Shown here: piece after piece, positions 48 through 50,058 of the stretch
Numbering within the stretch: position 1 is the first letter of the stretch
How the letters are laid out: each line of letters starts with the position of its first letter
Assembly (NCBI GenBank): GCA_001821395.1
Contig: MHLM01000012.1
Location: 32,001-96,000, forward strand
Direction of reading: 5' to 3'
DNA from: Candidatus Lloydbacteria bacterium RIFCSPHIGHO2_02_FULL_50_18
Lineage (GTDB): Bacteria; Patescibacteriota; Minisyncoccia; Phycocordibacterales; UBA6899
DNA: 64,000 bases
Translations under genes and position numbers: made by a program
The notes under the pieces: model-generated
Seen by the model: the letters and a program-made list of their open reading frames with translations, nothing else
The model's database searches: none
Told to the model about the DNA's origin: nothing

Positions 48-139
48 GGGAGAATCGAAGCCTTTTCCCTTATTTTTGAAGGATTCATATCCTGAAAAAA
101 TGGGAAATGGGCACTGAAACTGTAAGTTTCGATTCTCCC
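48..139. repeat. Structured repeat element, copy 1 (about 92 nt); the second copy is at 3191-3283
   Basis: About 75% identity to 3191-3283 over roughly 90 nt. A terminal inverted repeat GGGAGAATCGAA...TTCGATTCTCCC encloses conserved inner hairpins (GGATTCATATCC; TTCCC/GGGAA). Confidence 0.6.
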
Positions 140-143
140 TACC

Positions 144-312
144 CGCACTAGGAACGAGCGTGATAAAAGGCCCTTCATAGGGCTTTTTATCACCGAGTGA
201 CGACGTGCGGGAGGCTTTGCCTACGCGCACTAGGATGAACAACGAGCGTGATAAAAGGCCCTTCATAGGGCTTTTTATCACCGAGTGACGACGTGCGGGA
301 GGCTTTGCCTAC
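144..312. repeat. Tandem direct repeat, 2 units (81 and 87 bp), each containing the terminator-like hairpin AAAAGGCCCTTCATAGGGCTTTTT
   Basis: The units are near-identical, with a 6-nt insertion in unit 2; they could be aligned directly by eye. Confidence 0.8.
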
Positions 313-496
313 TCAGCAGTCATTTTTGATCAACTTGAGCTTTTGGTGTGCTGCTCACAAAGAATATACGTTTTTTATGAAATACAGGTAAATGCAAAGC
401 ATTTTCTCCTTAAAAAATTAAACGTCGGCAATAAAATATTTTTTCTGAAATTCGTCAATAATTCCTAAAATATGTGATTTTAAGCATTTTTTGAAC

Positions 497-545
497 TTAT
501 CCACACCTGCTGTGCATAAAAACTGTGGATAAGTCTGTGGAAAGT
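497..545. promoter_or_regulatory. DnaA-box cluster: TTATCCACA (497-505), inverted TGTGGATAA (524-532) and degenerate TGTGGAAAG, next to an AT-rich tract (about 366-480)
   Basis: Two perfect consensus DnaA 9-mers in inverted orientation 18 bp apart, with an AT-rich tract just upstream. Confidence 0.4.
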
Positions 546-706
546 GGGTATAAAGGACATTATAATGACTTTTATTATGTCCTTTAGGAATTTGATTGAG
601 GGCGGCGTTGTGCCGTTTCACGGAAAGCAAAGAATTAATGTTACTACGTAACAAATTAAGCAACAGTACAATATATCTGACTTGAATAACGTAAATTGGG
701 TTTCAC

Positions 707-1126
707 ATGAAACTGAATAGTGAGAAACTTGAAAAAATGGGACAAATTACTGAAAAACAGCAAATAGGGAGGACCGGAGAGGATATTGCATGCTTGTTTC
801 TCGTGAAACGTGGCTTTCAAATCGTTGAGCGTAATTTTTGGAAGAAGGTCGGTGAAATAGATATTATTTGCACAAAAGAGGAAAAATTTTACTTTGTTGA
901 AGTAAAAACGATCGTAAAAAGAGGTGTTTCACGTGAAATGAGCGATAATTATCGTCCAGAAGATAATCTGCATGCTCAAAAGATCGTTCGACTTGGAAGA
1001 GCAATTGATATTTACCTTGAAGAGCAAAATATTGATGGTGATTGGGAAATACTTGGGGTCATGATAATTATTGACCCAAAGACTAAGATTGCAAAAGTGT
1101 CGCTTTTGGAAAATTTCGCCTGGTAG
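707..1126 (+). CDS. yraN: UPF0102 / YraN family endonuclease-like protein
   Basis: GEDIA...GF.IVERN...GEIDII...FVEVK motifs typical of the YraN family; the true start may be M11 at 737. Confidence 0.7.
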   Translation: MKLNSEKLEKMGQITEKQQIGRTGEDIACLFLVKRGFQIVERNFWKKVGEIDIICTKEEKFYFVEVKTIVKRGVSREMSDNYRPEDNLHAQKIVRLGRAIDIYLEEQNIDGDWEILGVMIIIDPKTKIAKVSLLENFAW

Positions 1127-1403
1127 TCTTTTCACGTGAAACATAATGAACGAGAAGGATGACGGACCCAGGTCATAAGGTCGTTTTGTCTATTATGGGT
1201 GTTTCACGTGAAATCCTGCCTCAAATCTGTCTTGATCATCGCTTTGTTTTTGCGGTTTTATGTTTAGTGAAAGATAACTACAAAGTATAAATGAGCATAG
1301 CGCTGCTTGGGGATTACTCTTGAATTTTTTATGAGTATAATATGGAAAAGACAATCTTTATGAACAGGTTGCGTAGTTTAAAATTCTATGATATAATATT
1401 TCC

Positions 1404-1688
1404 ATGACTGATTCAAAACGCACCGAGTTGACACTGCATGCGATCGAGATCATTCACGGATCTCGTCTTTCAAGCGACGAGAAGATGATGCTTGAGGGGA
1501 GAATCCCGTTTATCTCTGATTCCATGCTTGAAATGTTTGTGCAGGTTTGCGATGAAGATCCGTTCGGCGTTGATGCAATCGTTAAAAATCTAAAGAAGAA
1601 ACTTGATGCAGGAGGGAATTTAAAACGATTGCATGAGATCGTAAAACAGGAGCGCAGGGAAATCGAAGATTCATTAGTCCTAGGATAA
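1404..1688 (+). CDS. Hypothetical acidic protein (94 aa)
   Basis: Intact ORF preceded by an AT-rich promoter-like region with TATAAT; no recognizable domain. Confidence 0.4.
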   Translation: MTDSKRTELTLHAIEIIHGSRLSSDEKMMLEGRIPFISDSMLEMFVQVCDEDPFGVDAIVKNLKKKLDAGGNLKRLHEIVKQERREIEDSLVLG

Positions 1689-1698
1689 TAAATTTTAT

Positions 1699-2835
1699 AT
1701 GAGCGAGAAAATTCAGCAACAGGCAGAAGACGGAGAGGTGCAGCAAATTTCTTCCTTGACTGACATTGATTCAAGCACTAGGACGACAAGCACCGAGGAA
1801 GGTGATGGCGTTGTCACGGGTGATATCGGTACATCAGAAACGGTTTTTCCGCAGTTTGGTACCGTCGGAGATGTGGGAGAAACCTATGAATTGACGAGTA
1901 ATTTTTCCGAACTCGGTGATCCGATGCAAACTCTGGAACGATCACAACTACTTTGGGATGCACTTGCGCCGGAGGTTGTTGATCGACTCCTCGCAGATTC
2001 TCCGTTTAGCAGCGAGGAATTTTTGGCACTACCTGATGCAGATAAGAATGCCGCGCTTAATATCGTTGAAGATAGCGCAGTCGCTGCTGCCATGGCGCAG
2101 GAAGCCCCATCCGCCCGTGTCGCAGTGGTTTCATCAGAACTTACCCTAGCTGACGATCAGTCGATCGCGGCGAAGTCGATGAGGTGGGGTCGGTCTCTCG
2201 GTGCCGCATTAATAGTGGGGCTTGGCGCAACCCTTGCGCCGGGTGTTGCAAGTGCCGGTGGTCATGATGATAATATTTTCAAGTCATTTGGAGATAGCAT
2301 CGTGCATGGAGTTAAAAGAGATGTGCGTGAGGCGGGGAGAGATAGCGGCGCGGTGTTGGGAGGGGTTGTGCGCATCATCATCGATCGTTCGGTAAATCAG
2401 ACAGCAGTGCAAATACTTGGAGCGGCCGGAGTGCCGGCACAGCAGGCCCCGGAGGAAGTTGTTGTTGTGCCGAGAAGTGTTCCTGGCGCGTATGGCGGCG
2501 GATACGGAGGTCAATACGAAGTACGCGGACGGAGTGCCGGCGAATACGAAGCGCATGGATACGGCGGTCGCGGAATGGAGAGCAGTGAGCGTATTCGCAT
2601 AAAACAGGATATTAACCGTCTCGTGTCACAAGAGAGGGCACTCACAATTCAGGCGGAAAATTCACGGAGAACGGTAATGCAAACTTACGCTCAGTTGAGC
2701 GGGAGCAGAAATGACCTGAGTCTTCGGGCAAGATATGATGCAGAGCGGAGCCAGTACGAATATACCGTGGGAATGATTAGGACTCTCCGGGGTCAGATCG
2801 GCGACCTGAGCGGTAGACTCAGTCAGACGCCATAA
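1699..2835 (+). CDS. Hypothetical acidic protein with a central hydrophobic segment, a GYGG-repeat region and a C-terminal coiled coil (378 aa)
   Basis: Long ORF ending in a terminator hairpin at about 2857-2890; the composition (TM-like GAALIVGLGATLAPGVASAGG, GYGGGYGG repeats) suggests a surface or secreted protein. Confidence 0.5.
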   Translation: MSEKIQQQAEDGEVQQISSLTDIDSSTRTTSTEEGDGVVTGDIGTSETVFPQFGTVGDVGETYELTSNFSELGDPMQTLERSQLLWDALAPEVVDRLLADSPFSSEEFLALPDADKNAALNIVEDSAVAAAMAQEAPSARVAVVSSELTLADDQSIAAKSMRWGRSLGAALIVGLGATLAPGVASAGGHDDNIFKSFGDSIVHGVKRDVREAGRDSGAVLGGVVRIIIDRSVNQTAVQILGAAGVPAQQAPEEVVVVPRSVPGAYGGGYGGQYEVRGRSAGEYEAHGYGGRGMESSERIRIKQDINRLVSQERALTIQAENSRRTVMQTYAQLSGSRNDLSLRARYDAERSQYEYTVGMIRTLRGQIGDLSGRLSQTP

Positions 2836-2856
2836 GGTGTTGATCAGCGTCTGGTG

Positions 2857-2890
2857 AAAAACATCCCATATTCGATGGGGTGTTTTTATT
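2857..2890 (+). terminator. Rho-independent terminator
   Basis: Hairpin AACATCCCAT...ATGGGGTGTT followed by TTTTTATT. Confidence 0.5.
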
Positions 2891-2956
2891 ATCGCAAACG
2901 AGATAGTTGCCCTAATTTGAATTTTAAGCTACTCTTGCGACACGACCGAAGTATAT

Positions 2957-3037
2957 CGGGGCGTGGTGTAATGGCTAACATGTCTGGTTTTCAGGATAGA
3001 GACCAGATGACAAGAGACAGCGTGACGTAGTGAGGAA
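2957..3037 (+). pseudogene. Partial tRNA-Pro copy: the 5' half duplicated with its upstream flank, an altered 15-nt anticodon loop and no T-arm
   Basis: 2948-2990 is near-identical to 3038-3080, but the downstream sequence does not fold into a T-arm or acceptor stem. Confidence 0.6.
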
Positions 3038-3046
3038 GAAGTATAT

Positions 3047-3119
3047 CGGGGCGTGGTGTAACGGCTAACATGTCTGGTTTGGGACCAGATGACTCCGGGT
3101 TCGAATCCCGGCGCCCCGA
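3047..3119 (+). tRNA. tRNA-Pro (anticodon UGG)
   Basis: Manual cloverleaf: 7-bp acceptor CGGGGCG/CGCCCCG, D-arm, anticodon stem TCTGG/CCAGA with loop TTTGGGA, T-arm CCGGG-TTCGAAT-CCCGG, discriminator A, and no encoded CCA. Confidence 0.85.
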
Positions 3120-3163
3120 CTAAATAAAGAAAAGACCTTCAAGGAGGTCTTTTCTTTATTTAG
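3120..3163. other. Perfect 18-bp-stem hairpin (CTAAATAAAGAAAAGACC / GGTCTTTTCTTTATTTAG)
   Basis: Read directly from the sequence immediately downstream of the tRNA. Confidence 0.7.
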
Positions 3164-3190
3164 TCGAAGGCGCGAGGAGCACAGCTCCGA

Positions 3191-3283
3191 GAGGGATTCG
3201 AAGCCCTTCTCCCATATTTATGAAGGATTCTTATCCTGAGTAAATGGGAAAGGGGTACTGACGCAGTAGGCGTCGAAATTCCC
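3191..3283. repeat. Structured repeat element, copy 2, fused to a duplicated 3' end of tRNA-Pro (TTCCCGGCGCCCCGACTAAATAAA at about 3275-3300)
   Basis: Aligns to 48-139. The tRNA 3'-terminal 24 nt is repeated about 160 bp downstream of the intact tRNA. Confidence 0.6.
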
Positions 3284-3412
3284 GGCGCCCCGACTAAATA
3301 AAAAAACTGCCTTTTGGCGGTTTTTTTATTAAATCTTCAAGATTGAAAATCACCTGCGGCGGTAAGGGTAGATCTCAGTTTTCAATGACTGAGAAGGCGT
3401 CATCGATAAAAA

Positions 3413-3430
3413 GTGTTTCACGTGGAACAC
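3413..3430. promoter_or_regulatory. 18-bp near-palindrome GTGTTTCACGTGGAACAC upstream of the che operon
   Basis: Belongs to the TTTCACGTGAAA motif family clustered at 700-1213; lies 50-90 bp upstream of the cheW start. Confidence 0.4.
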
Positions 3431-3476
3431 CTGCGAGCTCGCAATGAATAACTTCTCACGATAGAATGAGTTTCTT

Positions 3477-4058
3477 GTGAAGAATCCCGAATACGAAGAA
3501 GGTGGACATGATGAAAAAAAAGACCTATTCCTTTTTGAGTTGGACGGGGATCTTTACGCTGTACCCGTTGAACTCGTCGATCGAGTAATGAAAATACCTC
3601 CGATCACTCCGATCCCCAATGCGCCGGCGGCAATTGTTGGTATCTTCCACTTGCGCGGAAAGGTCGTTTTGACCCTCGACCTCTCAAGTCGTATGGGTAT
3701 TTCCAGAATGAAGCCCTTAAGTCAAAACTTTCTTTTTGTCGTGCGGTATAAAAATGATCAGTTCGCCATTTTGATCGATACACCTAAGGTCATTGTACAC
3801 ATCCCAGCGAGCGAAATTCATCGTCCCGACTCCATTCTTACGGCCCGATTATCACCGCAATATGTCCAGGGAACCTTCATGTTTCAGGAGGTAACAAAAG
3901 TGAAAGTCCCTAATCATTCGATCTTCATCGAGCATATTGGTGGGGTTGACCGGAGGCCTGAAGAAATTCCACCATCACTTCGACCGGTACTCCTCCTTGA
4001 CCTTGAGCGAGTCCTTGACCAGGAGGATCTTCAGCACATGTTTATTTCACAGGAGTAA
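3477..4058 (+). CDS. cheW: Chemotaxis coupling protein CheW
   Basis: CheW-like domain (FxLRGxVxxVLDL-like motifs); an alternative ATG start at 3509 has a GAAGGTGG ribosome-binding site. Confidence 0.8.
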   Translation: MKNPEYEEGGHDEKKDLFLFELDGDLYAVPVELVDRVMKIPPITPIPNAPAAIVGIFHLRGKVVLTLDLSSRMGISRMKPLSQNFLFVVRYKNDQFAILIDTPKVIVHIPASEIHRPDSILTARLSPQYVQGTFMFQEVTKVKVPNHSIFIEHIGGVDRRPEEIPPSLRPVLLLDLERVLDQEDLQHMFISQE

Positions 4059-4079
4059 AGTCTATGGTACAATTTTAGT

Positions 4080-4442
4080 ATGGCAAAGGATATAAAAATA
4101 CTTCTTGTTGATGACTCAGCTTTTATGCGTAAGGTATTGCGTGACATCTTTGAAAGTGCCGGATATACGAATTTCATAGAGGCGGGAAATGGAACAGAAG
4201 CGATCCAAAAATTCAGAACAGAGAAGCCCGATTTTATCTTTCTTGATATCATCATGCCTGACGTGAACGGTATGGATGTACTTCGTGAGATCGGGAGCGA
4301 AGCGAAGGTCATCGTCGTATCGGCGGTTGGACAAAAGGATGTGATCGAGCAGGCAAAAACACTTGGTGCACTCGATTACATCGTAAAGCCTTTTGATCGT
4401 GATCAGGTGCTCGAAAAGGCCCAGCGGCATTTCGGTCAGTAA
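4080..4442 (+). CDS. cheY: Chemotaxis response regulator CheY
   Basis: Single receiver domain with DD...D...K residues, 120 aa. Confidence 0.85.
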   Translation: MAKDIKILLVDDSAFMRKVLRDIFESAGYTNFIEAGNGTEAIQKFRTEKPDFIFLDIIMPDVNGMDVLREIGSEAKVIVVSAVGQKDVIEQAKTLGALDYIVKPFDRDQVLEKAQRHFGQ

Positions 4443-4456
4443 GTAGCCCGACACGC

Positions 4457-5566
4457 TTGGTCAAATGTTTCATGAATAGTCAACCAACCGAAAAGATCCG
4501 TGTACTTATTGCAGATGATTCTTTTTTTATACGCACCTATCTTCAGGAGGTATTGAAAGCAAGTGAATCGATCGAAGTCGTTGGGCTTGCTTCATCGGGA
4601 ATCGAAGTAGTTGAGTTGGCACGTAAATTAAAACCCCATGTGATCACGATGGATTATCACATGCCGGGAAAAAATGGAATTGAAGCAACCGCAGAGATTA
4701 TGCGTGATGATCACCCGCTTCCGGCAATCATCATGCTTTCTGCTTTCGAGGGGGATGATGGCGAACATGTTCGAAAGACCCTTTTGTCCACCGGTGCCCA
4801 TGTGATCGAAAAACCGTCGGGAGAAGTGTCTCTTGATATAGAAAAGATTGCACGCACTATCGTACAACGGATCGAGGAGGTCGGGTGGACCGAAGTACGC
4901 ATGCGACACTCCTTTGCCCGCATGAAACACACTAGGGAACGAAGCCTAAATGGGCAGGATCGCACACTGCCATTTTCGGGGGTTGTCGTGATCGGTGCGT
5001 CTACCGGTGGGCCATCCTTGGTTGAAGGTTTGATCAAGTCGTTTGATCAGTATCACGGAATTTCGATCGTGATAGTTCAGCACATGTCTGCATATTTTAC
5101 TTCGCTGTTTGCTGAGCGGCTCGGACACGTTACCTCATTCCGTGTTTATGAAGCAAAGAGCGGAGACGTTCTTCTTCCGAACGATGCCCTCGTTGTCCCC
5201 GGTGGTTCTTTTTTGTTACCTACTTCGCTACCGGGTTCCCCGATGTGCAGCTTTGATATTATCGAAAGTGAAACTCATGCACCGGAGGCGCAGATCGACA
5301 ATTCGATGCGCGCGATAGCCGCTTGTTACCAGGGACCAATCGCCGGCGTATTACTTTCCGGAATGGGAAATGACGGAGCCGTCGGACTGCACGCACTGCG
5401 ATTGCGTGGAGGACTTTGTCTTGCGCAGGATCCGGAAACAGCACCGGTGCGTTCTATGCCGGCGCATGCGATTGATAGCGGTGAGGCAGTCGGAGTGCGG
5501 ATAGAGGATATCCCCGAACGTATCATGAGTCATTTTCGTCGACCATCACCGTCACGGCTTGCGTGA
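4457..5566 (+). CDS. cheB: Protein-glutamate methylesterase CheB (receiver plus methylesterase domains)
   Basis: N-terminal receiver domain followed by a CheB methylesterase domain (GASTGGP, HM..F, GG motifs). Confidence 0.85.
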   Translation: MVKCFMNSQPTEKIRVLIADDSFFIRTYLQEVLKASESIEVVGLASSGIEVVELARKLKPHVITMDYHMPGKNGIEATAEIMRDDHPLPAIIMLSAFEGDDGEHVRKTLLSTGAHVIEKPSGEVSLDIEKIARTIVQRIEEVGWTEVRMRHSFARMKHTRERSLNGQDRTLPFSGVVVIGASTGGPSLVEGLIKSFDQYHGISIVIVQHMSAYFTSLFAERLGHVTSFRVYEAKSGDVLLPNDALVVPGGSFLLPTSLPGSPMCSFDIIESETHAPEAQIDNSMRAIAACYQGPIAGVLLSGMGNDGAVGLHALRLRGGLCLAQDPETAPVRSMPAHAIDSGEAVGVRIEDIPERIMSHFRRPSPSRLA

Positions 5567-7250
5567 TATAATCAACCATATGCCGTTGAACATGAATAAG
5601 TATAAGGATCTCTTCTGCGCGGAAGCAGAGGAGCAGCTTGCAATACTCTCTCGTTTATTGCTTGTGCTTGAGAAATCAACAAACCACATGGAATACCATG
5701 AGGAGTTAATGCGCAGCGCACACACCATCAAGGGTGCCGCTGCGACAATGGGGTATGCTTCAATGGCAGAACTTGCTCATGCGGTTGAAGATATTTTTCA
5801 TGCAGCCGAGCGGGGTGCCCTTGTGGTTGATACACGGATCATTACACTATTGCTCTCAGCGATCGACCTCATGACGCATTCACTCGCCTCGATCAAGAGT
5901 AGTGACGTTGAACTTCCCAGTAAGGAAGTTGTTGATAAATTGAAAAAAATTCTTGAAGAAAATGCCGGTGTACAGACCGTTGTTCCGCAAGAAAAAACCG
6001 GTACTGATGTTCAGCAATTGCATATCGTCACTCCGGATACCATCAAGGTTAGTGTCGAAAAACTCGATACATTAATGGGGCTATTTGAGGAAATGTTGAT
6101 GCTCAGACTGAAGGCAAATTCAATGATCGAGCCTGCTGTGGAATTTGTTCGGACGACGACTGACCCTGTATTGAAGCAGCAATTATTCTTCATTGCCGAG
6201 CTCGAGGCATTGTTTGCAGAACTTGCGCGGCTCATGACTGAGCATCAAGACGCTCTTCTTGCTATTCGCCTCGTTCCCCTTGAACAGATCTTCGGCCAGT
6301 TCCCTCGTATGGTGAGGGATCTGTCGGTGCGAGAAGAAAAAGCGATCGAATTTTTTGTTGAAGGTGGAGATATCGCCTTAGACCGTACCGTGATCGAGGG
6401 CCTTGGCGGTGCACTAGCGCATCTTCTTCGCAATGCGGTCGACCACGGGATCGTTTCACGTGGAACAATATCTCTTTCGGCGGTAAGGGAAAAGGGACGC
6501 GTACGGATCTTTGTGGAGGATTCGGGCGCCGGGATCGATTATGGGCGGGTCAAAGAGGTGGCAACGGCTCAAGGGGTAGGCACGAGTGAAGAGATCGCAC
6601 TTATGGGAAACGAACAGCTCGCAGAATTATTGTTTCATCAAAATATGTCGACCAACAAAGTGGTGACGGATATTTCGGGAAGAGGAGTTGGTCTTGCTGC
6701 GGTGCGCGGGTTTGCTGAGGATGTCGGAGGACGCGTTGAAGTCATTTCTCCCATTCCGGAAATAGGGAAGGGGACCCGCTTTGTTCTTGATCTTCCGATC
6801 TCTCTTGCAACAGTGCGCGTGCTCGTCGTGCAAGCACGAGGGTACACATTTGCGATACCTTTCGATCATGTCATTAAAACACTTCACTTTGAAACGCGGG
6901 AGGTCGGTGACGCGGCGCATCAGGAAACACTTTTTCTCGACGGGACATTGTTGCCGCTGATGCATCTCGATAAAATTCTCAAACTATCATACGGTTCCGC
7001 TCCATCTCCGGAACATTCTCGAACCGCGGTGTTGATCCGAACGGGAGAGAAAACATTTCTTCTCGAAGTAGATGCGTGCACGGGTGAACAAGACCTATTG
7101 ATCAAATCGCTTCCTCCGGTTCTCCGTAATAATAAGGGATTTTCAGGCTCAGCGCTTCTCCCGGACGGACGAACAATATTATTACTCGATGGCCATGGTT
7201 TACTCATACAAGCAATAGACGATATACTGAACACCCAATCATTATCTTAA
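5559..7250 (+). CDS. cheA: Chemotaxis histidine kinase CheA
   Basis: Hpt domain (HTIKGAAATMG), HATPase domain (HLLRNAVDHGI, GRGVGL) and a C-terminal CheW-like domain; overlaps the cheB stop by 8 nt. Confidence 0.9.
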   Translation: MRDIINHMPLNMNKYKDLFCAEAEEQLAILSRLLLVLEKSTNHMEYHEELMRSAHTIKGAAATMGYASMAELAHAVEDIFHAAERGALVVDTRIITLLLSAIDLMTHSLASIKSSDVELPSKEVVDKLKKILEENAGVQTVVPQEKTGTDVQQLHIVTPDTIKVSVEKLDTLMGLFEEMLMLRLKANSMIEPAVEFVRTTTDPVLKQQLFFIAELEALFAELARLMTEHQDALLAIRLVPLEQIFGQFPRMVRDLSVREEKAIEFFVEGGDIALDRTVIEGLGGALAHLLRNAVDHGIVSRGTISLSAVREKGRVRIFVEDSGAGIDYGRVKEVATAQGVGTSEEIALMGNEQLAELLFHQNMSTNKVVTDISGRGVGLAAVRGFAEDVGGRVEVISPIPEIGKGTRFVLDLPISLATVRVLVVQARGYTFAIPFDHVIKTLHFETREVGDAAHQETLFLDGTLLPLMHLDKILKLSYGSAPSPEHSRTAVLIRTGEKTFLLEVDACTGEQDLLIKSLPPVLRNNKGFSGSALLPDGRTILLLDGHGLLIQAIDDILNTQSLS

Positions 7251-7255
7251 GTATT

Positions 7256-7921
7256 ATGCCATCACTATTTCAACTCACAGAAAATGATAATGACCAGTTA
7301 CGAGAACTTGTAAATATCGGAGTTTCGCATGCCGGAGACACGTTGTCTTTGATGATGGGGAAACATATCACGGTAAGTATTCCGGGGATATCCGTACAAA
7401 GCGCATCCACTACGCTCTGTTTGCCGCAAGGTGATGAGGATCTCACCGTCTCAGTGTTGCTCCGCGTATACGGGTTAATTAATGGATATGTCTTTTTGTT
7501 TTTTCCGCGCACTGCCGCTCTCCGCTTGCTGCAAGTACTTTCAGGAAAGAGTATCAGCGATGTGCGCGCACTCGATCGATTCGACCGGTCAATATTTCAA
7601 GAACTAGGAAACGTGATCACCGGCGGTACGTTGAACGGACTATCAAAATTTCTCCACATCGAGATGCTTCACTCCGTCCCCAACGTTGTCGTGGATATGA
7701 GTGGTGCAATATTCAATTCCTTATCAGCATCGATGGTGAAGCAGCACGAGGAATTTCTTTCTCTTGATGTTTCGATCTGCATCGATTCTCCATCGAGCTC
7801 TGCTGTGTGTGTTGATAGCGAGGCCTCCGCTGCGCGCATGTATCTTTTTATGGGACCGGATGCCGTGGAGAGGATCCTTGCGATCACCAATGCGATGATC
7901 GGCAAAAAAAATGACCTATGA
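7256..7921 (+). CDS. cheC: CheC-family CheY-P phosphatase
   Basis: Two ExxN-type repeats (ELVNIGVSHAGDTLS; QELGNVITGG) typical of the CheC/FliY/CheX family. Confidence 0.7.
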   Translation: MPSLFQLTENDNDQLRELVNIGVSHAGDTLSLMMGKHITVSIPGISVQSASTTLCLPQGDEDLTVSVLLRVYGLINGYVFLFFPRTAALRLLQVLSGKSISDVRALDRFDRSIFQELGNVITGGTLNGLSKFLHIEMLHSVPNVVVDMSGAIFNSLSASMVKQHEEFLSLDVSICIDSPSSSAVCVDSEASAARMYLFMGPDAVERILAITNAMIGKKNDL

Positions 7922-8406
7922 GCAATACTATCGAAATACGGATTGCTGAGCTTTTTGTTGGTGATCAGTCGAATGTCATCATCACAAAGGGGGTCGGCTC
8001 ATGTATCGTGATCGTCCTCTATGATCGCCTCGTGCGCATCGGAGGGATGGCACATGCGATACTTCCAGAAGCGAGCATCGAGCATGCAGAGGTTGGTGTG
8101 CATGTGGATTTAGGAAAACGATTTGTGAAGTATGCGGATCTTGCAGTGGACACATTGATCGCTGATATGGAGTCATTGGGTGGAACACGGCAGCATCTTG
8201 TCGCAAAATTGATCGGAGGTGCGCATATGTTTGCGTTGCTTGAAGGTGATACGTTTGGTATCGGGTGGGAAAATACAGAAAGTGCACGCGCGCGATTGGT
8301 CCACCATGGAATACCGATTGAAACGGAGGTGGTAGGCGGAACGGTCGGTCGGAATGTACGTCTTGATTGTGCAACAGGCATCGTCGAGATTATCACGAAG
8401 GTTTAA
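7918..8406 (+). CDS. cheD: Chemoreceptor glutamine deamidase CheD
   Basis: GVGSCIVIVLYD and GMAHAILP motifs typical of the CheD family; start codon overlaps the cheC stop. Confidence 0.8.
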   Translation: MSNTIEIRIAELFVGDQSNVIITKGVGSCIVIVLYDRLVRIGGMAHAILPEASIEHAEVGVHVDLGKRFVKYADLAVDTLIADMESLGGTRQHLVAKLIGGAHMFALLEGDTFGIGWENTESARARLVHHGIPIETEVVGGTVGRNVRLDCATGIVEIITKV

Positions 8407-8472
8407 CCTGAAGGTATCCTCAGTCAACTCACGCTTCATTGAATTTTATCTATTTTGCTATACACTGGGCAA

Positions 8473-8994
8473 ATGCTCATCCGTCGTAACCCACTAACCC
8501 TTTTGTCCTTTGTGCTGTTCGTTATTGCTCTCTACTCTGCGGGCATGCTTTCTTCTTCAGCTCGTGTTACACATGAAACAACGATCCCCGAAAACCTTTT
8601 TTCTGTGAAACAGGGTGTTACTCAGGATGGAACGGTGTCTATTTCCGAGGTTTCACGGGTTCCCGCCGTCCCGATCTTTCTAAAGAGTGCGAATCATCCA
8701 CGAACACTGCGAGCATTTGTCGGACCAAGTCAGGGTGACAAAGCATCACTTTTTATAGAGTCGGTACTACCGCGTGGCTATTTTGTTATTTCAGGAGGTT
8801 ATACTGTTTCACAAGATTTCCCGACACTTTTATGGAATAACGCAGTGACACTTCAGTTTTACGGAACAAAAGAGAACAACGAGCAGCTCTACCGTATTCG
8901 TCTTAACGTGCATGCACTTACGGTTGATGCTTTGCCCGTTGATCCGACAGCAACCAGTAGCGATCCGACGGGGTATCGTGTGACGCCGGATTAA
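8473..8994 (+). CDS. Hypothetical membrane-anchored or secreted protein
   Basis: N-terminal signal/TM segment (LLSFVLFVIALYSAG); ORF-track start 8455 is a TTG, and the first ATG is at 8473. Confidence 0.5.
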   Translation: MLIRRNPLTLLSFVLFVIALYSAGMLSSSARVTHETTIPENLFSVKQGVTQDGTVSISEVSRVPAVPIFLKSANHPRTLRAFVGPSQGDKASLFIESVLPRGYFVISGGYTVSQDFPTLLWNNAVTLQFYGTKENNEQLYRIRLNVHALTVDALPVDPTATSSDPTGYRVTPD

Positions 8995-24041: not shown

Positions 24042-25793
24042 ATGCTCGTCCAAGAAAGCAAATTAAAGAAATTTATTCTCGATTCCGGGCTCACATCACG
24101 GTCGGAGATCCTTGCCGCCGAGAAAGATGCCGAGAAGGAAGGTGGGAGTATCGGAGATGTATTAGTGAAGCAGGGCAAAATATCCTCTGATGACCTGCGC
24201 CGTGTCCAGGCATATATTCTCGGCATTCCATTTGTGGATCTGCGCGGGCAGAAGATCGATTTTGCCATCCTTTCATTGATCCCCGAGCCGATTGCACGCA
24301 AGCACAATATCGTCGCATTTCGAAAAACGGATTCCGGTCTTGAGGTCGCAATGCTTGACGTTGATGATCTTGAGGCGATCGACTTTGTGCGTAAAAAGGT
24401 GGGGTTACGTATTCTCCCGCGATTGACGGATCAAGAGTCGGTAAAGGGATCATTGCTGCAGTATCAAAAATCTCTGAAGGCGGAGTTTGGTGACCTCATT
24501 CAGCAAGAAGCACAGTCGATACAAATGCTTGCCGAAGATGAAGATAATCCTGCGTCAGAAAAAGATCTGAAGAAACTCGCGGAAGACCTTCCTGTGGTGC
24601 GTATTGTTGATACGCTCTTGAATCATGCCATCATTCAGTCAGCGTCCGACATTCATATTGAACCGATGGAAAATCAATTGCTGGTGCGCTATCGCATCGA
24701 CGGTATTCTTCACGATGCCATGGTGCTTCCACGAAATTCTGCACCGGGTATTACCGCGCGTATCAAGGTGCTTTCGAATTTAAAATTGGATGAAAAGCGG
24801 TTGCCTCAGGACGGACGGTTCAAGATCCAATTGAACAATGAGAAGGTCTCTTTTCGTGTCTCGACGCTTCCGACACATCATGGAGAGAAGACGGTTATGC
24901 GTCTTTTGCGCGAATCATCAGGAGGTTTCTCGCTTGAATCATTGGGTTTTCACGGGCAGGGACTTGAGGCGCTCCATTCGGCGATGAATCAGCACGTCGG
25001 AATGCTGCTCGTGACCGGGCCGACCGGTTCCGGTAAGACAACGACGCTCTATACATTGCTCGATATCCTGAATACTCCCGATGTGAACATCTCCACCATT
25101 GAGGATCCCGTTGAGTATCAGATGCCGCGTATCAATCAGACACAAGTGAAGCCGGAGATCGGCCTCACCTTTGCCATGGGGTTACGCGCACTCCTTCGCC
25201 AGGACCCCGATATCATCATGGTGGGAGAGATCCGCGACGGTGAGACAGCCTCACTTGGAATCAATGCCGCGCTTACGGGACATTTAGTGCTGTCGACCCT
25301 GCATACGAATTCCGCCGCCGGAACATTACCGCGTTTCATTGATATGGGCGCAGAGCCGTTCCTCATCATCTCAACGGTGAACGTCATCATCGGACAACGG
25401 CTCGTACGTAAGTTGTGCGCCACGAAAGAGAAATATAATCTCTCAAAGGCGGAGCTTGATGCATTAGGGAAAAAGGCAAACCTCGATATCGTCCTCGCTT
25501 CACTCAAGGAGGAGGGGATAGTAGCAAAAGATATAGCGTGGGCGGATGTCCCGTTTTATAAAGCGAAACCTTCCCCTGAATGTGATGAGGGCTATAAGGG
25601 GCGTCTGAGTATTCATGAAGTGCTACACATGTCGTCGGGGATCCGTGAACTTGCCGTCGCAAGTGCATCTGCAGAAAAGATCGAGATACAGGCGCGCAAA
25701 GAAGGGATGCTGACGATGCTTGAAGACGGGATATTCAAGGCAGCCCAAGGACTCACGTCCATCGAAGAAGTCTATAGAGTAGTCAGCGAGTGA
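24042..25793 (+). CDS. pilB: Type IV pilus assembly ATPase PilB (GspE family)
   Basis: GSPII_E N-terminal domain, Walker A GPTGSGKTTT, and Asp and His boxes. Confidence 0.9.
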   Translation: MLVQESKLKKFILDSGLTSRSEILAAEKDAEKEGGSIGDVLVKQGKISSDDLRRVQAYILGIPFVDLRGQKIDFAILSLIPEPIARKHNIVAFRKTDSGLEVAMLDVDDLEAIDFVRKKVGLRILPRLTDQESVKGSLLQYQKSLKAEFGDLIQQEAQSIQMLAEDEDNPASEKDLKKLAEDLPVVRIVDTLLNHAIIQSASDIHIEPMENQLLVRYRIDGILHDAMVLPRNSAPGITARIKVLSNLKLDEKRLPQDGRFKIQLNNEKVSFRVSTLPTHHGEKTVMRLLRESSGGFSLESLGFHGQGLEALHSAMNQHVGMLLVTGPTGSGKTTTLYTLLDILNTPDVNISTIEDPVEYQMPRINQTQVKPEIGLTFAMGLRALLRQDPDIIMVGEIRDGETASLGINAALTGHLVLSTLHTNSAAGTLPRFIDMGAEPFLIISTVNVIIGQRLVRKLCATKEKYNLSKAELDALGKKANLDIVLASLKEEGIVAKDIAWADVPFYKAKPSPECDEGYKGRLSIHEVLHMSSGIRELAVASASAEKIEIQARKEGMLTMLEDGIFKAAQGLTSIEEVYRVVSE

Positions 25794-26069
25794 CGGGCAT
25801 TCTCGCGGATTATTTCGTTGAAAGCTTGCGAGGCTCATTCACCGTACTCAGAAGTACGCCTCATATCGCTTCGCGCTTTCGCCTCGTACTCCATCGAGAA
25901 TACCAATCACTCTATTCGGCTAAATCTGGCGTCTATATTTGTTAGCGGCCCACTGCCCGTCCTTCCTAGCTTTCGTTTCGCATCAAGATCATTCACTCAC
26001 TCGGGAACAGCGAATGAATGATTTTGCGTTTTATTTGTGAAAAGAGTAGAACTACAAAGGAACAATTGA

Positions 26070-26375
26070 ATGAAATTTCACATGAAACTTATTCGTGACA
26101 AGATACCCGGCATCGCTCATGCAAAGGGTGAACAGCTGCAGTGCCATAAGGCGGATCCCGCAGAATATCGCTATCATCTTCGAGAAAAGATTCTTGAAGA
26201 GGTTCATGAATTTCGTGAGTCTGGAGAGGCAGAGGAATTAGCTGATATTCTGGAGGTTGTACGGGCGATAGCAAATGAGCGCGGTTTATCGATGCGCAAT
26301 CTTTATCTCCTTCGTGATAAAAAGCGCCGAGCACGGGGAGGATTTGACGGACGGATCATTTGGCAAAATGAGTAG
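26070..26375 (+). CDS. MazG-like nucleotide pyrophosphohydrolase (PRA-PH-like small protein)
   Basis: KLIRDKIP N-terminus and EELADILEV motif typical of small all-alpha NTP pyrophosphohydrolases. Confidence 0.55.
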   Translation: MKFHMKLIRDKIPGIAHAKGEQLQCHKADPAEYRYHLREKILEEVHEFRESGEAEELADILEVVRAIANERGLSMRNLYLLRDKKRRARGGFDGRIIWQNE

Positions 26376-26527
26376 ATCGAGCAAGTCGGCTTGTAGGATC
26401 GGACATCGTGTCCGGTCTTTTGTTATTGCCCATGAGAATGCCATGAGTTTCGGTCACGACCATGCGCGAGTAAGGAGTGTGGAAAAGCGTGTCACGCAGA
26501 CTATTTTCCTATATAATAAAATGAACT

Positions 26528-27745
26528 ATGCCCAAGTACACCTATAAAGCACAATTGCTCGCAACTGGTAGTGAGATGGAAGGAACCGCAGAAGCAGCGG
26601 ATAAATTTGAACTTGCAAAGAATATAAAGATGGAAGGAAAACTTCTTCTTAGCGCAACCGAGCTCTCCGATTCACCCTGGAACATGGACAAGATCAACGC
26701 CTTGCTGACGAAGGTTGACCTGCGTGAAAAGATCTTGTTTGCGCGCAATATGGCGACGATGATCCAGGCAGGACTTCCTCTTTCACGAGCATTGCAGATC
26801 TTTGTGAAACAAACGAAGAATCCGAAGTTTCGTACGGTATTGAGCTCCATCATCGAAGACATTAATAAAGGCACTTCTTTTTCCGATGCCATGGGAAAAT
26901 TCGAAGATATTTTTCCGGCCGTCTTCATTTCAATGGTACGTGCAGGTGAGGAATCCGGCGGACTCGTTGAGGCGCTCAATGTTGTTGGCGGACAGATGGA
27001 AAAGACCTATACGATAAAGAAAAAAGTAAAAGGCGCAATGATGTATCCTGGGATCGTCCTCATCGTCATGCTTGCGGTGGGGGTGCTGATGATGATCTAC
27101 GTTGTTCCCGGACTTGCGGCAGGGTTCAAGGAGGCCGGCGCTGAATTGCCCCCCCTGACAAAGGCCATCGTGGCTATAAGTGATTTTCTGCAGAATGACC
27201 TCCTCCTCGCATTGCTCGGTGTCGCCGGTGTCACTGCAGCATTCTGGTGGTACAAGCGCACGACGCTCGGTTCTCGTTCCATTGACTGGCTAGTAATCCG
27301 CCTCCCTGTTTTTGGTAAATTGATCAAGGAGTTCAACTCCGCACTTGCTACTCGTACGCTGTCATCACTCATATCTGCGGGGGTGGATATCGTCCATGCG
27401 ATCGAGATCACCCAAGACGTGCTCGGTAATATCTTTTATAAAGAAACGCTAGAACAGGCGAAGATTAATGTGCAGAAAGGAGTCCCTCTTTCCCAGGTGT
27501 TCATCGAAAATAATGAGATCTACCCGGTCATGGTGGGAGACATGATGGAGGTTGGGGAAGAGACCGGACAGCTCTCGGGAATGCTGCTCAAGATCGCGAC
27601 GTTCTATGAAGAAGAGGTTAGTCAGGCGACCGAGGACATGTCAAAGCTCATCGAACCGCTGCTCATGGCCATCATCGCCGTCTTTGTCGGCATTTTCGCG
27701 GTCGCAATGATCACCCCCATGTACTCGATGATGCAAAATATCTAA
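26528..27745 (+). CDS. pilC: Type IV pilus platform protein PilC (GspF family)
   Basis: Two T2SS-F repeats and three TM segments, 405 aa. Confidence 0.85.
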   Translation: MPKYTYKAQLLATGSEMEGTAEAADKFELAKNIKMEGKLLLSATELSDSPWNMDKINALLTKVDLREKILFARNMATMIQAGLPLSRALQIFVKQTKNPKFRTVLSSIIEDINKGTSFSDAMGKFEDIFPAVFISMVRAGEESGGLVEALNVVGGQMEKTYTIKKKVKGAMMYPGIVLIVMLAVGVLMMIYVVPGLAAGFKEAGAELPPLTKAIVAISDFLQNDLLLALLGVAGVTAAFWWYKRTTLGSRSIDWLVIRLPVFGKLIKEFNSALATRTLSSLISAGVDIVHAIEITQDVLGNIFYKETLEQAKINVQKGVPLSQVFIENNEIYPVMVGDMMEVGEETGQLSGMLLKIATFYEEEVSQATEDMSKLIEPLLMAIIAVFVGIFAVAMITPMYSMMQNI

Positions 27746-49108: not shown

Positions 49109-49774
49109 TTACGTAAGATGCGCGGTGTCGTTTAATCTAAGAATGACCCATCCTTCTCCTGTTTCGGAAAAATTGGTCCGCACCTTGTGTGTAAGGATGG
49201 AAAACCCGGTGTTATCGAAACGGAATTGATACGCGTTGAGATCGTGCGATGTGAGGCTCTCCCCGCGCTGTGTTGCCGCAACAAAGAACGTCGCGAATAC
49301 CCCATGTGTGACAAGCGCGATGTGTTCATCAGGAAGCGCGAGGAGATAGGTGATCCCTGCGAGTGCTCGCGCTTTCATCATTGAGAACGTTTCGCCGTCT
49401 CCGTAGATAAAGTCCGGATCATGAAAATGATCACGTCCCTCCATGTGAATAATGGACGCACCGGGGTCAGTTGTCAGTTTCCCCCGGATCACGCTTGGGT
49501 GTCGCCGTTCGACGAAGAGAGGCGAGTGGGTCGGCGCGAGACCGATCGCACCTCCGATCGCTCCGGCAGTTTGCACCGCACGGTCATCGGTGCTGGTGAT
49601 GAGTTTTGTGATCGGATAGCGCATGTGTTCACGTGCGAGTCTTGCCGCAAGTGCTTCCGCTTGTGCTTCACCGCGCTTCGTCAGTGGTTCCGTGTTGTGC
49701 TGGAATCGTCCGTCCACGTTTGAACCTGTTTCTCCATGACGGATGATATACAACGTCTTTTGTTTACTGCTCAT
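49109..49774 (-). CDS. Histidine phosphatase family protein (phosphoglycerate-mutase-like)
   Basis: LYIIRHGETGSN N-terminal RHG motif. Confidence 0.75.
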   Translation of the reverse strand: MSSKQKTLYIIRHGETGSNVDGRFQHNTEPLTKRGEAQAEALAARLAREHMRYPITKLITSTDDRAVQTAGAIGGAIGLAPTHSPLFVERRHPSVIRGKLTTDPGASIIHMEGRDHFHDPDFIYGDGETFSMMKARALAGITYLLALPDEHIALVTHGVFATFFVAATQRGESLTSHDLNAYQFRFDNTGFSILTHKVRTNFSETGEGWVILRLNDTAHLT

Positions 49775-49937
49775 GGTACGAGTACCTCCTGTTGGTGCAC
49801 CTCCGCGGGGCAGAGATGAGCGCTACTATGAATGAACCACTGCTAGGACAATAGCCGTTTTATCGAGCCGGTGCAAACAGCAGTGATATTGTGTCTCAAG
49901 ACCCTACGACGAATTCTTCGTGAGTTGGAGTCAGTTG

Positions 49938-49995
49938 TGGATAGCTGCCCATAGCTCCCTCAGTCCTGATCTTATACACAGATTATACACAGAGT
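49938..49995. promoter_or_regulatory. DnaA-box-like repeats: tandem TTATACACA (two copies) plus TGTGGATAG
   Basis: CTTATACACAGATTATACACAGAG matches the TTATNCACA consensus twice in tandem. Confidence 0.35.
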
Positions 49996-50058
49996 TTTCC
50001 ACAAGATAAAAAAGTCCGCACATTGTGCGGACTGAAGTGTCGGTTAAAAGACCGTCTT

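What the first reader, a model, noticed from the sequence alone, without database searches (positions are those of the whole stretch)
366..600. AT-rich tract plus two perfect inverted DnaA boxes: a candidate DnaA-binding region or origin-like element
TTATCCACA (497-505) and TGTGGATAA (524-532) are perfect consensus DnaA boxes in inverted orientation. A degenerate TGTGGAAAG lies next to them, about 110 bp of AT-rich sequence lies just upstream, and an imperfect palindrome GGACATTATAATGACTTTTATTATGTCC lies at 558-585. There is no dnaA or dnaN gene nearby, so this may be an oriC displaced from dnaA, a DnaA-regulated promoter, or a plasmid or phage-type origin remnant linked to the adjacent repeats.
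Basis: partly seen in the sequence, partly recalled or inferred. Interest (0 to 1): 0.5.

Follow-up and report, generated by a model that had tools for sequence, protein, structure and literature searches.

The report
DnaA-box cluster beside parS, not the origin
The two perfect DnaA boxes are real and belong to a conserved DnaA-binding module next to the chromosome's parS (centromere) sites in a Candidatus Lloydbacteria genome, but the replication origin of this genome lies about 40 kb away at dnaA-dnaN, so this is a secondary regulatory DnaA site and not oriC.

Summary
Bases 497-553 carry five DnaA-box-like 9-mers, two of them perfect. It is the densest such cluster in 111.6 kb of this genome, and no shuffle reaches it. 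A 76% AT tract lies upstream.

The origin reading fails for this genome. I walked left on the same assembly contigs and found rnpA-yidC | dnaA-dnaN 38-41 kb upstream of the window. Strand-corrected GC3 skew changes sign there (7 of 7 genes to the left are negative). It stays positive from dnaA through the finding to +64 kb.

The element is still not a chance promoter. A 40-nt core, AAAC-TGTGGATAA-ctc-TGTGGAyAg-TGTTGATAA-AGGACA, is conserved upstream of yraN in 22 other Paceibacteria. A parS-like site follows within about 200 bp in 21 of 24 loci. In the window, eight parS-like sites lie at 699-8580 and none lies elsewhere.

Best reading: a non-origin, origin-proximal DnaA-box cluster at the promoter and parS edge of the yraN unit. 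It resembles the B. subtilis DnaA-box clusters and the Caulobacter centromere DnaA sites.

One open twist remains. In 14 more distant relatives the skew switch falls at the homologous module, with no dnaA within 10 kb.

The parts
366..496 (.). AT-rich tract (75.6% AT) upstream of the boxes. It is specific to this lineage and is not aligned in relatives.
   Evidence: the flanks of the core are not conserved in alignment A1
497..505 (+). Perfect DnaA box TTATCCACA, inverted relative to the array. It is not conserved in the nearest relative, L029.
511..519 (-). DnaA box with 1 mismatch (TGTGCATAA as read on the + strand). It is the first box of the direct array, and a TGTGCAAAA counterpart is present in Yonathbacteria-like relatives.
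524..532 (-). Perfect DnaA box (TGTGGATAA on the + strand). This is the anchor box, invariant in 22 of 23 aligned genomes.
536..553 (-). Two weaker phased boxes, TGTGGAAAG (536-544) and TGGGTATAA (545-553). Their starts lie 12 and 21 nt after the anchor box. The conserved positions are TG...A.A and TGT..AT.AA.
551..586 (.). Inverted pair of the TAAAGGACA motif (AAGGACA at 553-559, TGTCCTT at 578-584). The first copy sits at a fixed +29 from the anchor box in nearly all relatives. No binding factor is known.
538..566 (+). Best sigma-70-like promoter match of bases 1-1500 (TGGAAA-17-TATAAT, 10 of 12), overlapping the weak boxes. This is a prediction only. The TATAAT is not conserved in L029.
699..714 (.). 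First parS-like palindrome, GGTTTCACATGAAACT (3 mismatches to TGTTTCACGTGAAACA), 175 nt after the anchor box. It contains the yraN start codon.
707..1126 (+). yraN (UPF0102/PF02021), the first gene downstream. It carries parS-like sites inside it at 795-810 and 925-940.
1128..1215 (.). Two more parS-like sites (1128-1143 and 1200-1215) just after yraN. Further sites lie at 3414-3429, 6452-6467 and 8565-8580.
49936..50003 (-). Second module-like DnaA-box array, read on the - strand as TGTGGAAAA-ctc-TGTGTATAA-tc-TGTGTATAA-gatc-AGGACT plus one inverted box. It lies about 190-240 nt upstream of a histidine-phosphatase gene (49774..49109, - strand).

Best explanation
This is a conserved DnaA-box cluster that lies near the origin but is not the origin. 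It is not the site where this chromosome unwinds.

Proposed mechanism (inferred): the invariant perfect box (524-532) would anchor DnaA. Two to three weaker boxes in the same orientation, at 9-13-nt phasing (511-519, 536-544, 545-553), would let a short cooperative DnaA oligomer form. That complex would sit on the promoter region of the yraN transcription unit, about 150 bp from the first of a cluster of parS sites.

Position (shown): the real oriC is the dnaA-dnaN region about 40 kb to the left. Forks therefore pass through the module from left to right and then cross the parS sites.

Likely function (inferred): DnaA occupancy here would couple initiator level to expression of, or ParB loading at, the parS/yraN unit, and would hold DnaA close to the origin. 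The B. subtilis oriC-proximal DnaA-box clusters work this way.

Shown: the sequence architecture, its conservation, its coupling to parS, its position relative to dnaA, and the absence of a strand-polarity switch. Inferred: DnaA binding, oligomer formation, and the regulatory consequence.
For: (1) Cluster density is far above chance. The score is 10, against a maximum of 6 in 200 shuffles.

(2) A 40-nt core is conserved while its flanks are not. It appears in 22 GTDB loci whose YraN is only 38-50% identical, and in L029. It always has the same orientation relative to the next gene. This holds even where a methyltransferase gene is inserted before yraN.

(3) A parS-like site lies 85-190 nt downstream of the anchor box in 21 of 24 loci. 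In the 111.6-kb composite, all 7 sites with 2 or fewer mismatches lie at +795 to +8565.

(4) The window's own genome was extended with exact overlaps to -47.6 kb. dnaN is at -40805..-39705, dnaA at -39453..-38104, and rnpA-yidD-yidC-jag run divergently. GC3 skew of the + strand is -0.070 left of the dnaA-dnaN spacer (7 of 7 genes negative), +0.093 between dnaA and the module (33 genes, same sign for genes on both strands), and +0.062 to the right (60 genes). The cumulative minimum is at dnaN/dnaA.

(5) The dnaA-dnaN spacer carries its own boxes. It ends ...ACACATATCCACAGG-cg-AT-rich just before dnaN. Relatives have TTATCCACAAATCCACAGG followed by ATA ATA GTA ATA ATA and AT-rich DNA. From my own knowledge, this is the layout of the B. 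subtilis unwinding module (boxes 6/7, trios, AT-rich). The module's definition is in PMC8287927.

(6) In a relative's 110-kb contig, dnaA (with 5 boxes in the dnaA-dnaN spacer) is 40.0 kb from the module, and skew is uniform across the module.

(7) The best promoter match overlaps the weak boxes. A second, similar array lies in the same orientation upstream of another gene.
Against: - DnaA binding is not demonstrated.
- The TATAAT of the predicted promoter is not conserved in the nearest relative, so the promoter-operator part is weak.
- No ParB gene was found in the 111.6 kb held, so calling the palindromes parS rests on their match to the universal consensus and on their clustering.
- Only 8 kb (7 genes) is available left of dnaA.
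- In 14 more distant relatives the polarity switch falls at the homologous module. The same element may therefore be, or sit next to, an origin elsewhere.
Confidence: 0.62

Rival explanations
1. It is the chromosomal replication origin (oriC) of this genome, displaced from dnaA. DnaA bound at the boxes would melt the adjacent AT-rich tract.
For: - A dense box cluster lies next to the least stable 130 bp of the window.
- The direct boxes, read as TTATCCACA, point toward the AT tract, as in known unwinding modules.
- A parS cluster is adjacent.
- Genes diverge here.
- In 14 distant relatives the pooled GC3 skew switches sign at the homologous module, with no dnaA within 10 kb. A control of 26 unrelated loci shows no such step.
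Against: - In this genome the + strand GC3 skew is positive on both sides: +0.093 over the 38 kb to the left and +0.062 over the 64 kb to the right. The only origin-type sign change is at dnaA-dnaN, 40 kb away.
- The nearest relative, L029, also shows no switch over 20 kb to the left.
- The AT tract is not conserved.
- No convincing run of DnaA-trios follows the boxes. The scan is permissive and does not discriminate.
- The dnaA-dnaN spacer has the canonical layout.
Confidence: 0.05
2. It is a retired or auxiliary origin. In this reading an ancestral parS-linked oriC still fires in other Paceibacteria, but here it lost the unwinding function to the dnaA-dnaN site and survives as a DnaA-binding element.
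For: - The skew switch falls at the module in distant relatives.
- One Paceibacteria dnaA locus (L115) has no DnaA boxes and no skew switch.
- In L022/L012 the module, yraN, dnaA and dnaN are contiguous, with a clean switch.
- The dnaA-dnaN spacer of this genome contains TGAGGATAAgtcTGTGGAAAT, nearly the same tandem as the module's TGTGGATAAgtcTGTGGAAAG.
Against: - No relative was shown to have both a box-free dnaA locus and a module at the switch in the same genome.
- Flanks are only 10 kb and per-locus skew is noisy.
- L126 and L031/L033 show that the dnaA-linked origin is widespread in the group.
- Strong conservation of the core in genomes where it is not the origin argues for a present function rather than a relic.
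Confidence: 0.2
3. It is a DnaA site that belongs functionally to the centromere, as in Caulobacter. DnaA bound next to parS would help or time ParB-parS segregation, or would bound ParB spreading, with no role in transcription.
For: - The distance from the anchor box to the first parS is kept at about 85-190 nt even when the downstream gene differs.
- The cited precedent is Mera et al. [quoted passage not shown] In Caulobacter, parS is 8 kb from ori.
Against: - ParB and ParA genes were not found in the held sequence.
- The second module-like array at 49.9 kb has no parS near it.
- parS sits at or near the start codon of the downstream gene, so coupling to parS and coupling to the gene start cannot be separated.
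Confidence: 0.1
4. It is a remnant of a plasmid or phage replication origin, or of an integrated element, linked to the adjacent repeats.
For: - A duplicated 3' fragment of tRNA-Gly lies at 125-148 and a tandem 88-bp repeat at 153-312, just upstream.
- A tyrosine recombinase gene lies 5 kb to the left.
Against: - The module is at the same chromosomal site in 23 genomes, most with an intact tRNA-Gly directly upstream and no repeats.
- There is no match to plasmid or phage records.
- No replication initiator or phage genes are adjacent.
Confidence: 0.02

Closest known systems
oriC-proximal DnaA-box clusters (DBCs) of Bacillus subtilis (Okumura et al. 2012, PMC3245932)
   Same: Both are intergenic clusters of consensus DnaA boxes outside oriC but near it. 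In B. subtilis they are proposed to bind DnaA and restrain initiation, some regulate neighbouring genes, and they interact functionally with Spo0J/Soj, the ParB/ParA system.
   Different: Here the array is short (3-5 boxes in 57 bp). It is physically joined to a parS site and to a second conserved motif (AAGGACA). It is conserved across a CPR clade. No functional data exist.
DnaA binding at the Caulobacter crescentus centromere (Mera, Kalogeraki & Shapiro 2014, cited in PMC6667618 and PMC11151105)
   Same: In both cases DnaA sites lie in the parS region, which is separate from the origin (8 kb in Caulobacter, about 40 kb here). Forks from ori must pass the centromere.
   Different: The phylum differs, and here the boxes are perfect consensus sites in a phased array. 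The Caulobacter paper itself could not be read, so I know its site details only from its title and from citing papers.
oriCII / gidA-upstream DnaA boxes of Pseudomonas aeruginosa (PMC13438810)
   Same: A DnaA-box cluster near the origin that is not the firing origin. It controls transcription of an adjacent operon tied to chromosome segregation (abstract).
   Different: The regulated genes there are gidAB-parAB, whereas here the downstream gene is yraN. I read only the abstract.
Canonical oriC with the basal unwinding system (DnaA boxes, spacer, DnaA-trios, AT-rich; PMC8287927)
   Same: Tandem boxes in TTATCCACA orientation lead toward AT-rich DNA.
   Different: There is no strand-polarity switch and no clear trio run. 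The element is not next to dnaA/dnaN, and the AT tract is not conserved. This genome has a better match at its dnaA-dnaN spacer.
E. coli datA / DARS
   Same: Non-origin DnaA-box clusters that modulate DnaA activity (reviews PMC5742627 and PMC4585315, abstracts seen).
   Different: Those elements need IHF or Fis sites and specific box geometry. I did not test for these here.

Membership tests
Bacterial chromosomal origin (oriC) | Cluster of DnaA boxes | tested here: met
   Five boxes in 57 bp, two of them perfect. This is the top cluster in 111.6 kb.
Bacterial chromosomal origin (oriC) | Strand-composition polarity switches from negative to positive at the site | tested here: not met
   The + strand GC3 skew is +0.093 to the left and +0.062 to the right. 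The switch and the cumulative minimum are at dnaN/dnaA, about 40 kb to the left.
Bacterial chromosomal origin (oriC) | Adjacent unwinding element: DnaA-trios and a conserved AT-rich DUE next to the boxes | tested here: inconclusive
   An AT-rich tract is present but is not conserved. The trio scan found only GTT TTT ATG, which is part of the next box, and the criterion is too permissive to discriminate.
Bacterial chromosomal origin (oriC) | Replication starts here (marker frequency, 2D gels, autonomous replication) | not testable with these tools
   No read data or experiments were available.
Non-origin DnaA-box cluster (B. subtilis DBC type) | Three or more DnaA boxes in an intergenic region outside oriC | tested here: met
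Non-origin DnaA-box cluster (B. subtilis DBC type) | Origin-proximal location | tested here: met
   The module is 38.6 kb from the dnaA start and 40 kb from the dnaA-dnaN spacer, and 40.0 kb in the L025 contig. Genome size is unknown.
Non-origin DnaA-box cluster (B. subtilis DBC type) | DnaA bound in vivo, and an effect on initiation timing or on neighbouring gene expression | not testable with these tools
   This needs ChIP or footprinting and genetics.
parS centromere sites | 16-bp palindrome matching TGTTTCACGTGAAACA, in several copies near the origin | tested here: met
   Eight sites with 3 or fewer mismatches lie at 699-8580 and none elsewhere in 111.6 kb. Exact 16/16 matches occur in relatives L015, L026 and L027.
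parS centromere sites | A ParB protein encoded in the genome | tested here: inconclusive
   No ParB motif was found in the 111.6 kb or in related loci. There were no ParB domains among the annotated ORFs. The rest of the genome was not available.
DnaA-regulated promoter | DnaA boxes overlap a functional promoter of the downstream gene | tested here: inconclusive
   A consensus match, TGGAAA-17-TATAAT, lies at 538-566 but is not conserved in L029. Orientation relative to the next gene is conserved in 23 of 23 loci.

The most novel reading that the evidence does not exclude
The DnaA-box/AAGGACA/parS module may be a second, centromere-linked origin element of Paceibacteria. In this reading it is the active oriC in many relatives, where skew switches at the module, no dnaA lies within 10 kb, and at least one dnaA locus has no boxes. 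In the Lloydbacteria/Yonathbacteria branch, firing would have moved to the dnaA-dnaN site about 40 kb away. The clade would then show evolutionary hopping of the origin between two DnaA-box clusters, with the window's copy kept as a silenced or regulatory origin.
Probability: 0.25. Interest if true: 0.75.

Novelty: new variant of a known kind. Interest (0 to 1): 0.45.

Why it matters
Replication control in candidate-phyla-radiation bacteria is essentially unstudied. To my knowledge this module has not been described; my one literature search on CPR origins found nothing specific.

The module gives a concrete, conserved cis-element, about 60 bp plus a parS site about 150 bp away. It physically links the initiator DnaA to the chromosome's centromere sites. 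It can be tested with purified DnaA and ParB.

It is also a warning for automated origin prediction. The densest cluster of perfect DnaA boxes, with an AT-rich flank and parS next to it, is not the origin in this genome. An origin finder that weights box density and AT content could pick it.

If the skew pattern in the distant relatives holds up, the clade would be a natural system for studying how an origin moves between DnaA-box clusters.

Tried and rejected
- Plain GC skew over the window plus 9.4 kb upstream was ambiguous, because it follows gene strand. I replaced it with third-codon-position skew split by gene strand.
The look-up by its cluster-member id found nothing.
- The one metagenome scan, with the L029 UvrD protein, returned only relatives at 54% identity or less (one partial match at 71%). 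It did not extend the flank.
- A guessed DnaA hit (P0215) turned out to belong to another organism. It was useful only as a contrast.
- A BUS/DnaA-trio scan following the published rule did not discriminate between the module and the true origin spacer.
- Rfam gave only two tRNAs at gathering thresholds. There was nothing credible in bases 1-1500 at E up to 1.
- There was no similarity to plasmid or phage records.
- ParB motif searches and Pfam/NCBIfam scans of unannotated ORFs found no ParB.
- Homologues of the genes flanking the second box cluster were absent from all held loci, so its conservation could not be tested.
- AAGGACA as a general promoter element was rejected. There are only 3 copies in 64 kb, and 2 of them are in the module.

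Full report
**What is in the sequence**

Three weaker boxes join them: TGTGCATAA at 511-519, TGTGGAAAG at 536-544 and TGGGTATAA at 545-553. Four of the five boxes form a head-to-tail array with starts 13, 12 and 9 nt apart. The box at 497 is inverted relative to that array.

The window holds 3 perfect boxes against 0.40 expected. On a simple weighted score, 497-553 is the densest DnaA-box cluster in 111.6 kb of this genome. It scores 10, and the best of 200 local shuffles scores 6.

The upstream tract 366-496 is 75.6% AT, against 51.2% for the window. It is the least stable 130-bp stretch of the window, though several intergenic regions come close.

The 'imperfect palindrome' is an inverted pair of the motif TAAAGGACA (arms 551-565 and 572-586). 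As single-stranded DNA it folds at -8.7 kcal/mol, z = -4.9.

**Context**

- The gene downstream is yraN (707-1126, UPF0102/PF02021).
- After it come two unannotated ORFs, tRNA-Pro and a che gene cluster.
- The same DNA occurs on public contigs, identical over 11,038 bases apart from one 88-bp repeat copy.
- Upstream lie a CCA-adding enzyme gene (- strand), tRNA-Arg (- strand) and tRNA-Gly (+ strand). A duplicated 3' fragment of tRNA-Gly lies at window 125-148, and the tandem 88-bp repeat, which carries a terminator hairpin, at 153-312.
- The organism is a Candidatus Lloydbacteria MAG (Parcubacteria/Paceibacterota, CPR). Its PNPase is OGZ06219.1 and its locus tags are A2845_*.

**The boxes belong to a conserved module**

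A scan of GTDB species genomes with the YraN protein returned 22 loci, with YraN 38-50% identical. In 20 of the 22 a perfect TGTGGATAA lies 150-920 nt upstream of yraN, always on the yraN strand.

Aligned on that box, 23 genomes share a roughly 40-nt core, AAAC-TGTGGATAA-CTMTGTGGATAnTGTTnATAAAGGACA. Seventeen columns are invariant, and the flanks are unconserved.

The nearest relative found is L029, whose PNPase is 85% identical. It reads TGTGGATAAcTGTGGATAAgtcTGTGGAGAGTGGGTATAAAGGACA. The array and the AAGGACA are therefore kept, but the window's inverted perfect box is not.

Where a methyltransferase gene sits between the module and yraN, the module stays upstream of that gene. In many relatives an intact tRNA-Gly lies directly upstream of the module. 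In the window's genome, about 340 bp, the tRNA fragment, the repeats and the AT tract intervene. That makes the AT tract lineage-specific.

**A parS cluster is joined to the module**

The repeated palindrome around yraN matches the universal parS consensus TGTTTCACGTGAAACA. This identification is from my own knowledge of parS. Relatives L015, L026 and L027 have exact 16/16 copies.

The window has eight sites with 3 or fewer mismatches, at 699, 795, 925, 1128, 1200, 3414, 6452 and 8565. The 12-nt core is found 8 times against 0.38 expected.

In 21 of 24 loci a parS-like site lies 85-190 nt after the anchor box. I estimate the chance expectation for such a site in a given 105-nt interval at about 4e-4.

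No ParB signature was found in any sequence held. The parS reading therefore rests on the consensus match and the clustering.

**Is it the origin? A direct test in the window's own genome**

Plain GC skew was uninformative because it tracks gene strand. I therefore used G/C skew at third codon positions, expressed on the + strand and split by gene strand.

I extended the window leftward on the same assemblies:
- L119 lies on the same ENA contig as L001.
- L120, L123 and L124 come from other assemblies of the same population.
- The joins are overlaps of 1.1-13.4 kb with 0-1 mismatch.

The composite runs from window coordinate -47,575 to +64,000. It contains dnaN (-40805..-39705) and dnaA (-39453..-38104) on the - strand. 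Divergent from them are rnpA, yidD, yidC and jag on the + strand. This is the classic origin neighbourhood.

| Segment (window coordinates) | Genes | Pooled + strand GC3 skew |
|---|---|---|
| Left of the dnaA-dnaN spacer | 7 (all negative) | -0.070 |
| dnaA to the module | 33 | +0.093 (+0.087 for + strand genes, +0.095 for - strand genes) |
| Right of the module, to +64 kb | 60 | +0.062 |

The cumulative curve has its minimum at dnaN/dnaA and rises through the module without a kink.

The dnaA-dnaN spacer has one perfect box, three one-mismatch boxes and further weaker ones. It starts with TGAGGATAAgtcTGTGGAAAT, close to the module's TGTGGATAAgtcTGTGGAAAG. It ends ...ACACATATCCACAGGcgTAATTAATATAATTAGTATTTATATATAGCAAT directly before dnaN.

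In relatives that end reads TTATCCACAAATCCACAGG, then ATA ATA GTA ATA ATA, then AT-rich DNA. From my own recollection of the B. subtilis sequence, this is the box 6/7, trio and AT-rich layout of its basal unwinding system. The definition of that system is in PMC8287927.

The origin of this genome is at dnaA-dnaN, about 40 kb from the finding.

**Relatives show two configurations**

(a) Origin at dnaA, module elsewhere.
- In the 110-kb contig that holds L025, dnaA is 40.0 kb from the module. It has the rpmH-rnpA-yidC | dnaA-dnaN arrangement and 5 boxes in the dnaA-dnaN spacer.
- The skew switch is at dnaA and not at the module.
- L033 (the genome of L014) and L126 look the same at dnaA.
- The Yonathbacteria-like loci L014, L016, L020, L021, L023 and L025, and also L029, show no step at the module.

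(b) Module contiguous with dnaA.
- In L022 and L012 the module, yraN, dnaA and dnaN are contiguous, with a clean switch.

(c) Switch at the module, no dnaA nearby.
- In 14 more distant relatives there is no dnaA within 10 kb.
- Their pooled + strand GC3 skew is -0.08 to -0.10 over the 10 kb left of the module and +0.06 to +0.12 to the right.
- Genes on either strand mostly share those signs. One bin, the + strand genes within 3 kb to the left, is slightly positive at +0.026.
- In 26 unrelated control loci, left and right skews correlate (r = 0.77), and none steps from below -0.05 to above +0.05.
- One Paceibacteria dnaA locus (L115) has no DnaA box in its flanking spacers and no switch.

The homologous module may therefore coincide with the origin in some lineages. 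Flanks of 10 kb and noisy per-locus values do not prove it, and no single genome was shown to have both properties.

**How it most likely works**

Shown:
- an invariant consensus box followed by two or three phased weaker boxes in one orientation;
- a second fixed motif (AAGGACA) 29 nt from the anchor;
- a parS site about 150 nt further on;
- conserved orientation toward the next gene;
- a position about 40 kb inside a replichore, so that forks from oriC traverse module, then parS, then yraN, co-directionally.

Inferred:
- DnaA nucleates on the perfect box and spreads cooperatively over the weak boxes.
- The resulting complex overlaps the best sigma-70-like promoter match (TGGAAA-17-TATAAT at 538-566).
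- It therefore couples DnaA level to transcription across the first parS and yraN, while also holding DnaA near the origin.

Points in favour of an operator-type role:
- A looser second array (49936-50003) has the same box order and AGGAC tail.
- It lies in the same orientation, about 190-240 nt upstream of a histidine-phosphatase gene and just after the prs terminator.
- It is the second-densest cluster in the composite.

The tight box-to-parS spacing argues equally for a centromere-related role. The two cannot be separated with sequence alone.

**Comparison with known systems**

The closest functional analogues are:
- the six oriC-proximal DnaA-box clusters of B. subtilis, which restrain initiation and act together with Spo0J/Soj (PMC3245932);
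- DnaA binding at the Caulobacter centromere, 8 kb from ori (Mera et al. 2014, as cited in PMC6667618);
- the DnaA-regulated gidAB-parAB promoter in 'oriCII' of P. aeruginosa (PMC13438810).

The element fails one defining test of oriC, the polarity switch. It meets the sequence-level tests for a non-origin DnaA-box cluster. I therefore file it as a new variant of that kind. What is new is the fixed composite of box array, AAGGACA and parS, and its conservation across a CPR clade. I found no paper on CPR origins or DnaA sites in the one literature search I made on that topic.

**Limits**

- DnaA and ParB binding are inferred.
- Only 8 kb is known left of dnaA.
- Genome size is unknown.
- The promoter is a consensus match only.
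- The factor for AAGGACA is unknown.
- The conservation of the second array could not be tested.

Noticed in passing
window 699-714, 795-810, 925-940, 1128-1143, 1200-1215, 3414-3429, 6452-6467, 8565-8580: A cluster of eight parS-like palindromes (TGTTTCACGTGAAACA, 1-3 mismatches), with none elsewhere in 111.6 kb. One contains the yraN start codon and two lie inside the yraN coding sequence. The same clustering around yraN is seen in all 22 relatives.
   Followed up: yes
window 49936-50003 (- strand): A second module-like DnaA-box array, TGTGGAAAA-ctc-TGTGTATAA-tc-TGTGTATAA-gatc-AGGACT plus an inverted TGTGGATAG. It lies between the prs terminator and a histidine-phosphatase gene and is the second-densest box cluster in the composite. 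Its conservation in relatives could not be tested.
   Followed up: partly
window 125-148 and 153-312; L001 9114-9187: A 3' fragment of tRNA-Gly(GCC) is duplicated about 340 bp downstream of the intact gene. It is followed by a tandem 88-bp repeat, each copy carrying a terminator-like hairpin. The repeat has two copies in the window and in most assemblies but one copy in L001. This looks like an old integration scar at tRNA-Gly, and a tyrosine recombinase gene lies 5 kb to the left.
   Followed up: partly
L014, L016, L020-L023, L025 and others, -5 kb to +0.1 kb from the anchor box; window 553-559 and 578-584: The 7-mer AAGGACA/TGTCCTT occurs in groups of two to four at several places left of the module in relatives. 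Some groups fall inside the exo-endo-phosphatase and CCA-enzyme ORFs. One copy is always 29 nt after the anchor box. The motif is absent from the dnaA loci L031 and L033. No known binding factor comes to mind.
   Followed up: partly
L115 (ENA ERZ27245926 k141_44698), dnaA at 5197-6546: A Paceibacteria dnaA-dnaN locus with no DnaA box (1 mismatch or fewer) in either flanking spacer. The + strand GC3 skew is positive on both sides, so the origin of that organism is not at dnaA.
   Followed up: partly
window 3477-8406: A chemotaxis-type gene cluster (CheW, CheY-like receiver, CheB, CheA, CheC/CheX, CheD) in a CPR genome, with type IV pilus or type II secretion ATPase and platform genes at 24042-27745. 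No receptor or CheR was looked for.
   Followed up: no
composite, window coordinates about -35,000 to -20,000 (L119, L120, L123): A T4SS-like or pilin gene cluster (PrgI-like, TraC-like, VirB4/TraG P-loop ATPase, T4SS_pilin proteins) lies between the origin (rnpA-yidC side) and the module. The same cluster flanks dnaA in L031, L033 and L126.
   Followed up: no
L127 (E. coli K-12 NC_000913.3, 3295394-3296399): In E. coli, yraN lies immediately upstream of diaA, the gene for the DnaA initiator-associating protein. The uncharacterised YraN family is therefore linked to DnaA-related elements in two very distant lineages. This is only a lead.
   Followed up: partly
L001 9205-9270 (about 150 bp left of window position 1): A long, nearly perfect palindrome (gcaaatcgtgaaatagcaaaaataacgagatatctcgttatttttgctatttcacgatttg) lies directly after tRNA-Gly, inside the segment bounded by the tRNA-Gly 3' duplication.
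   Followed up: no
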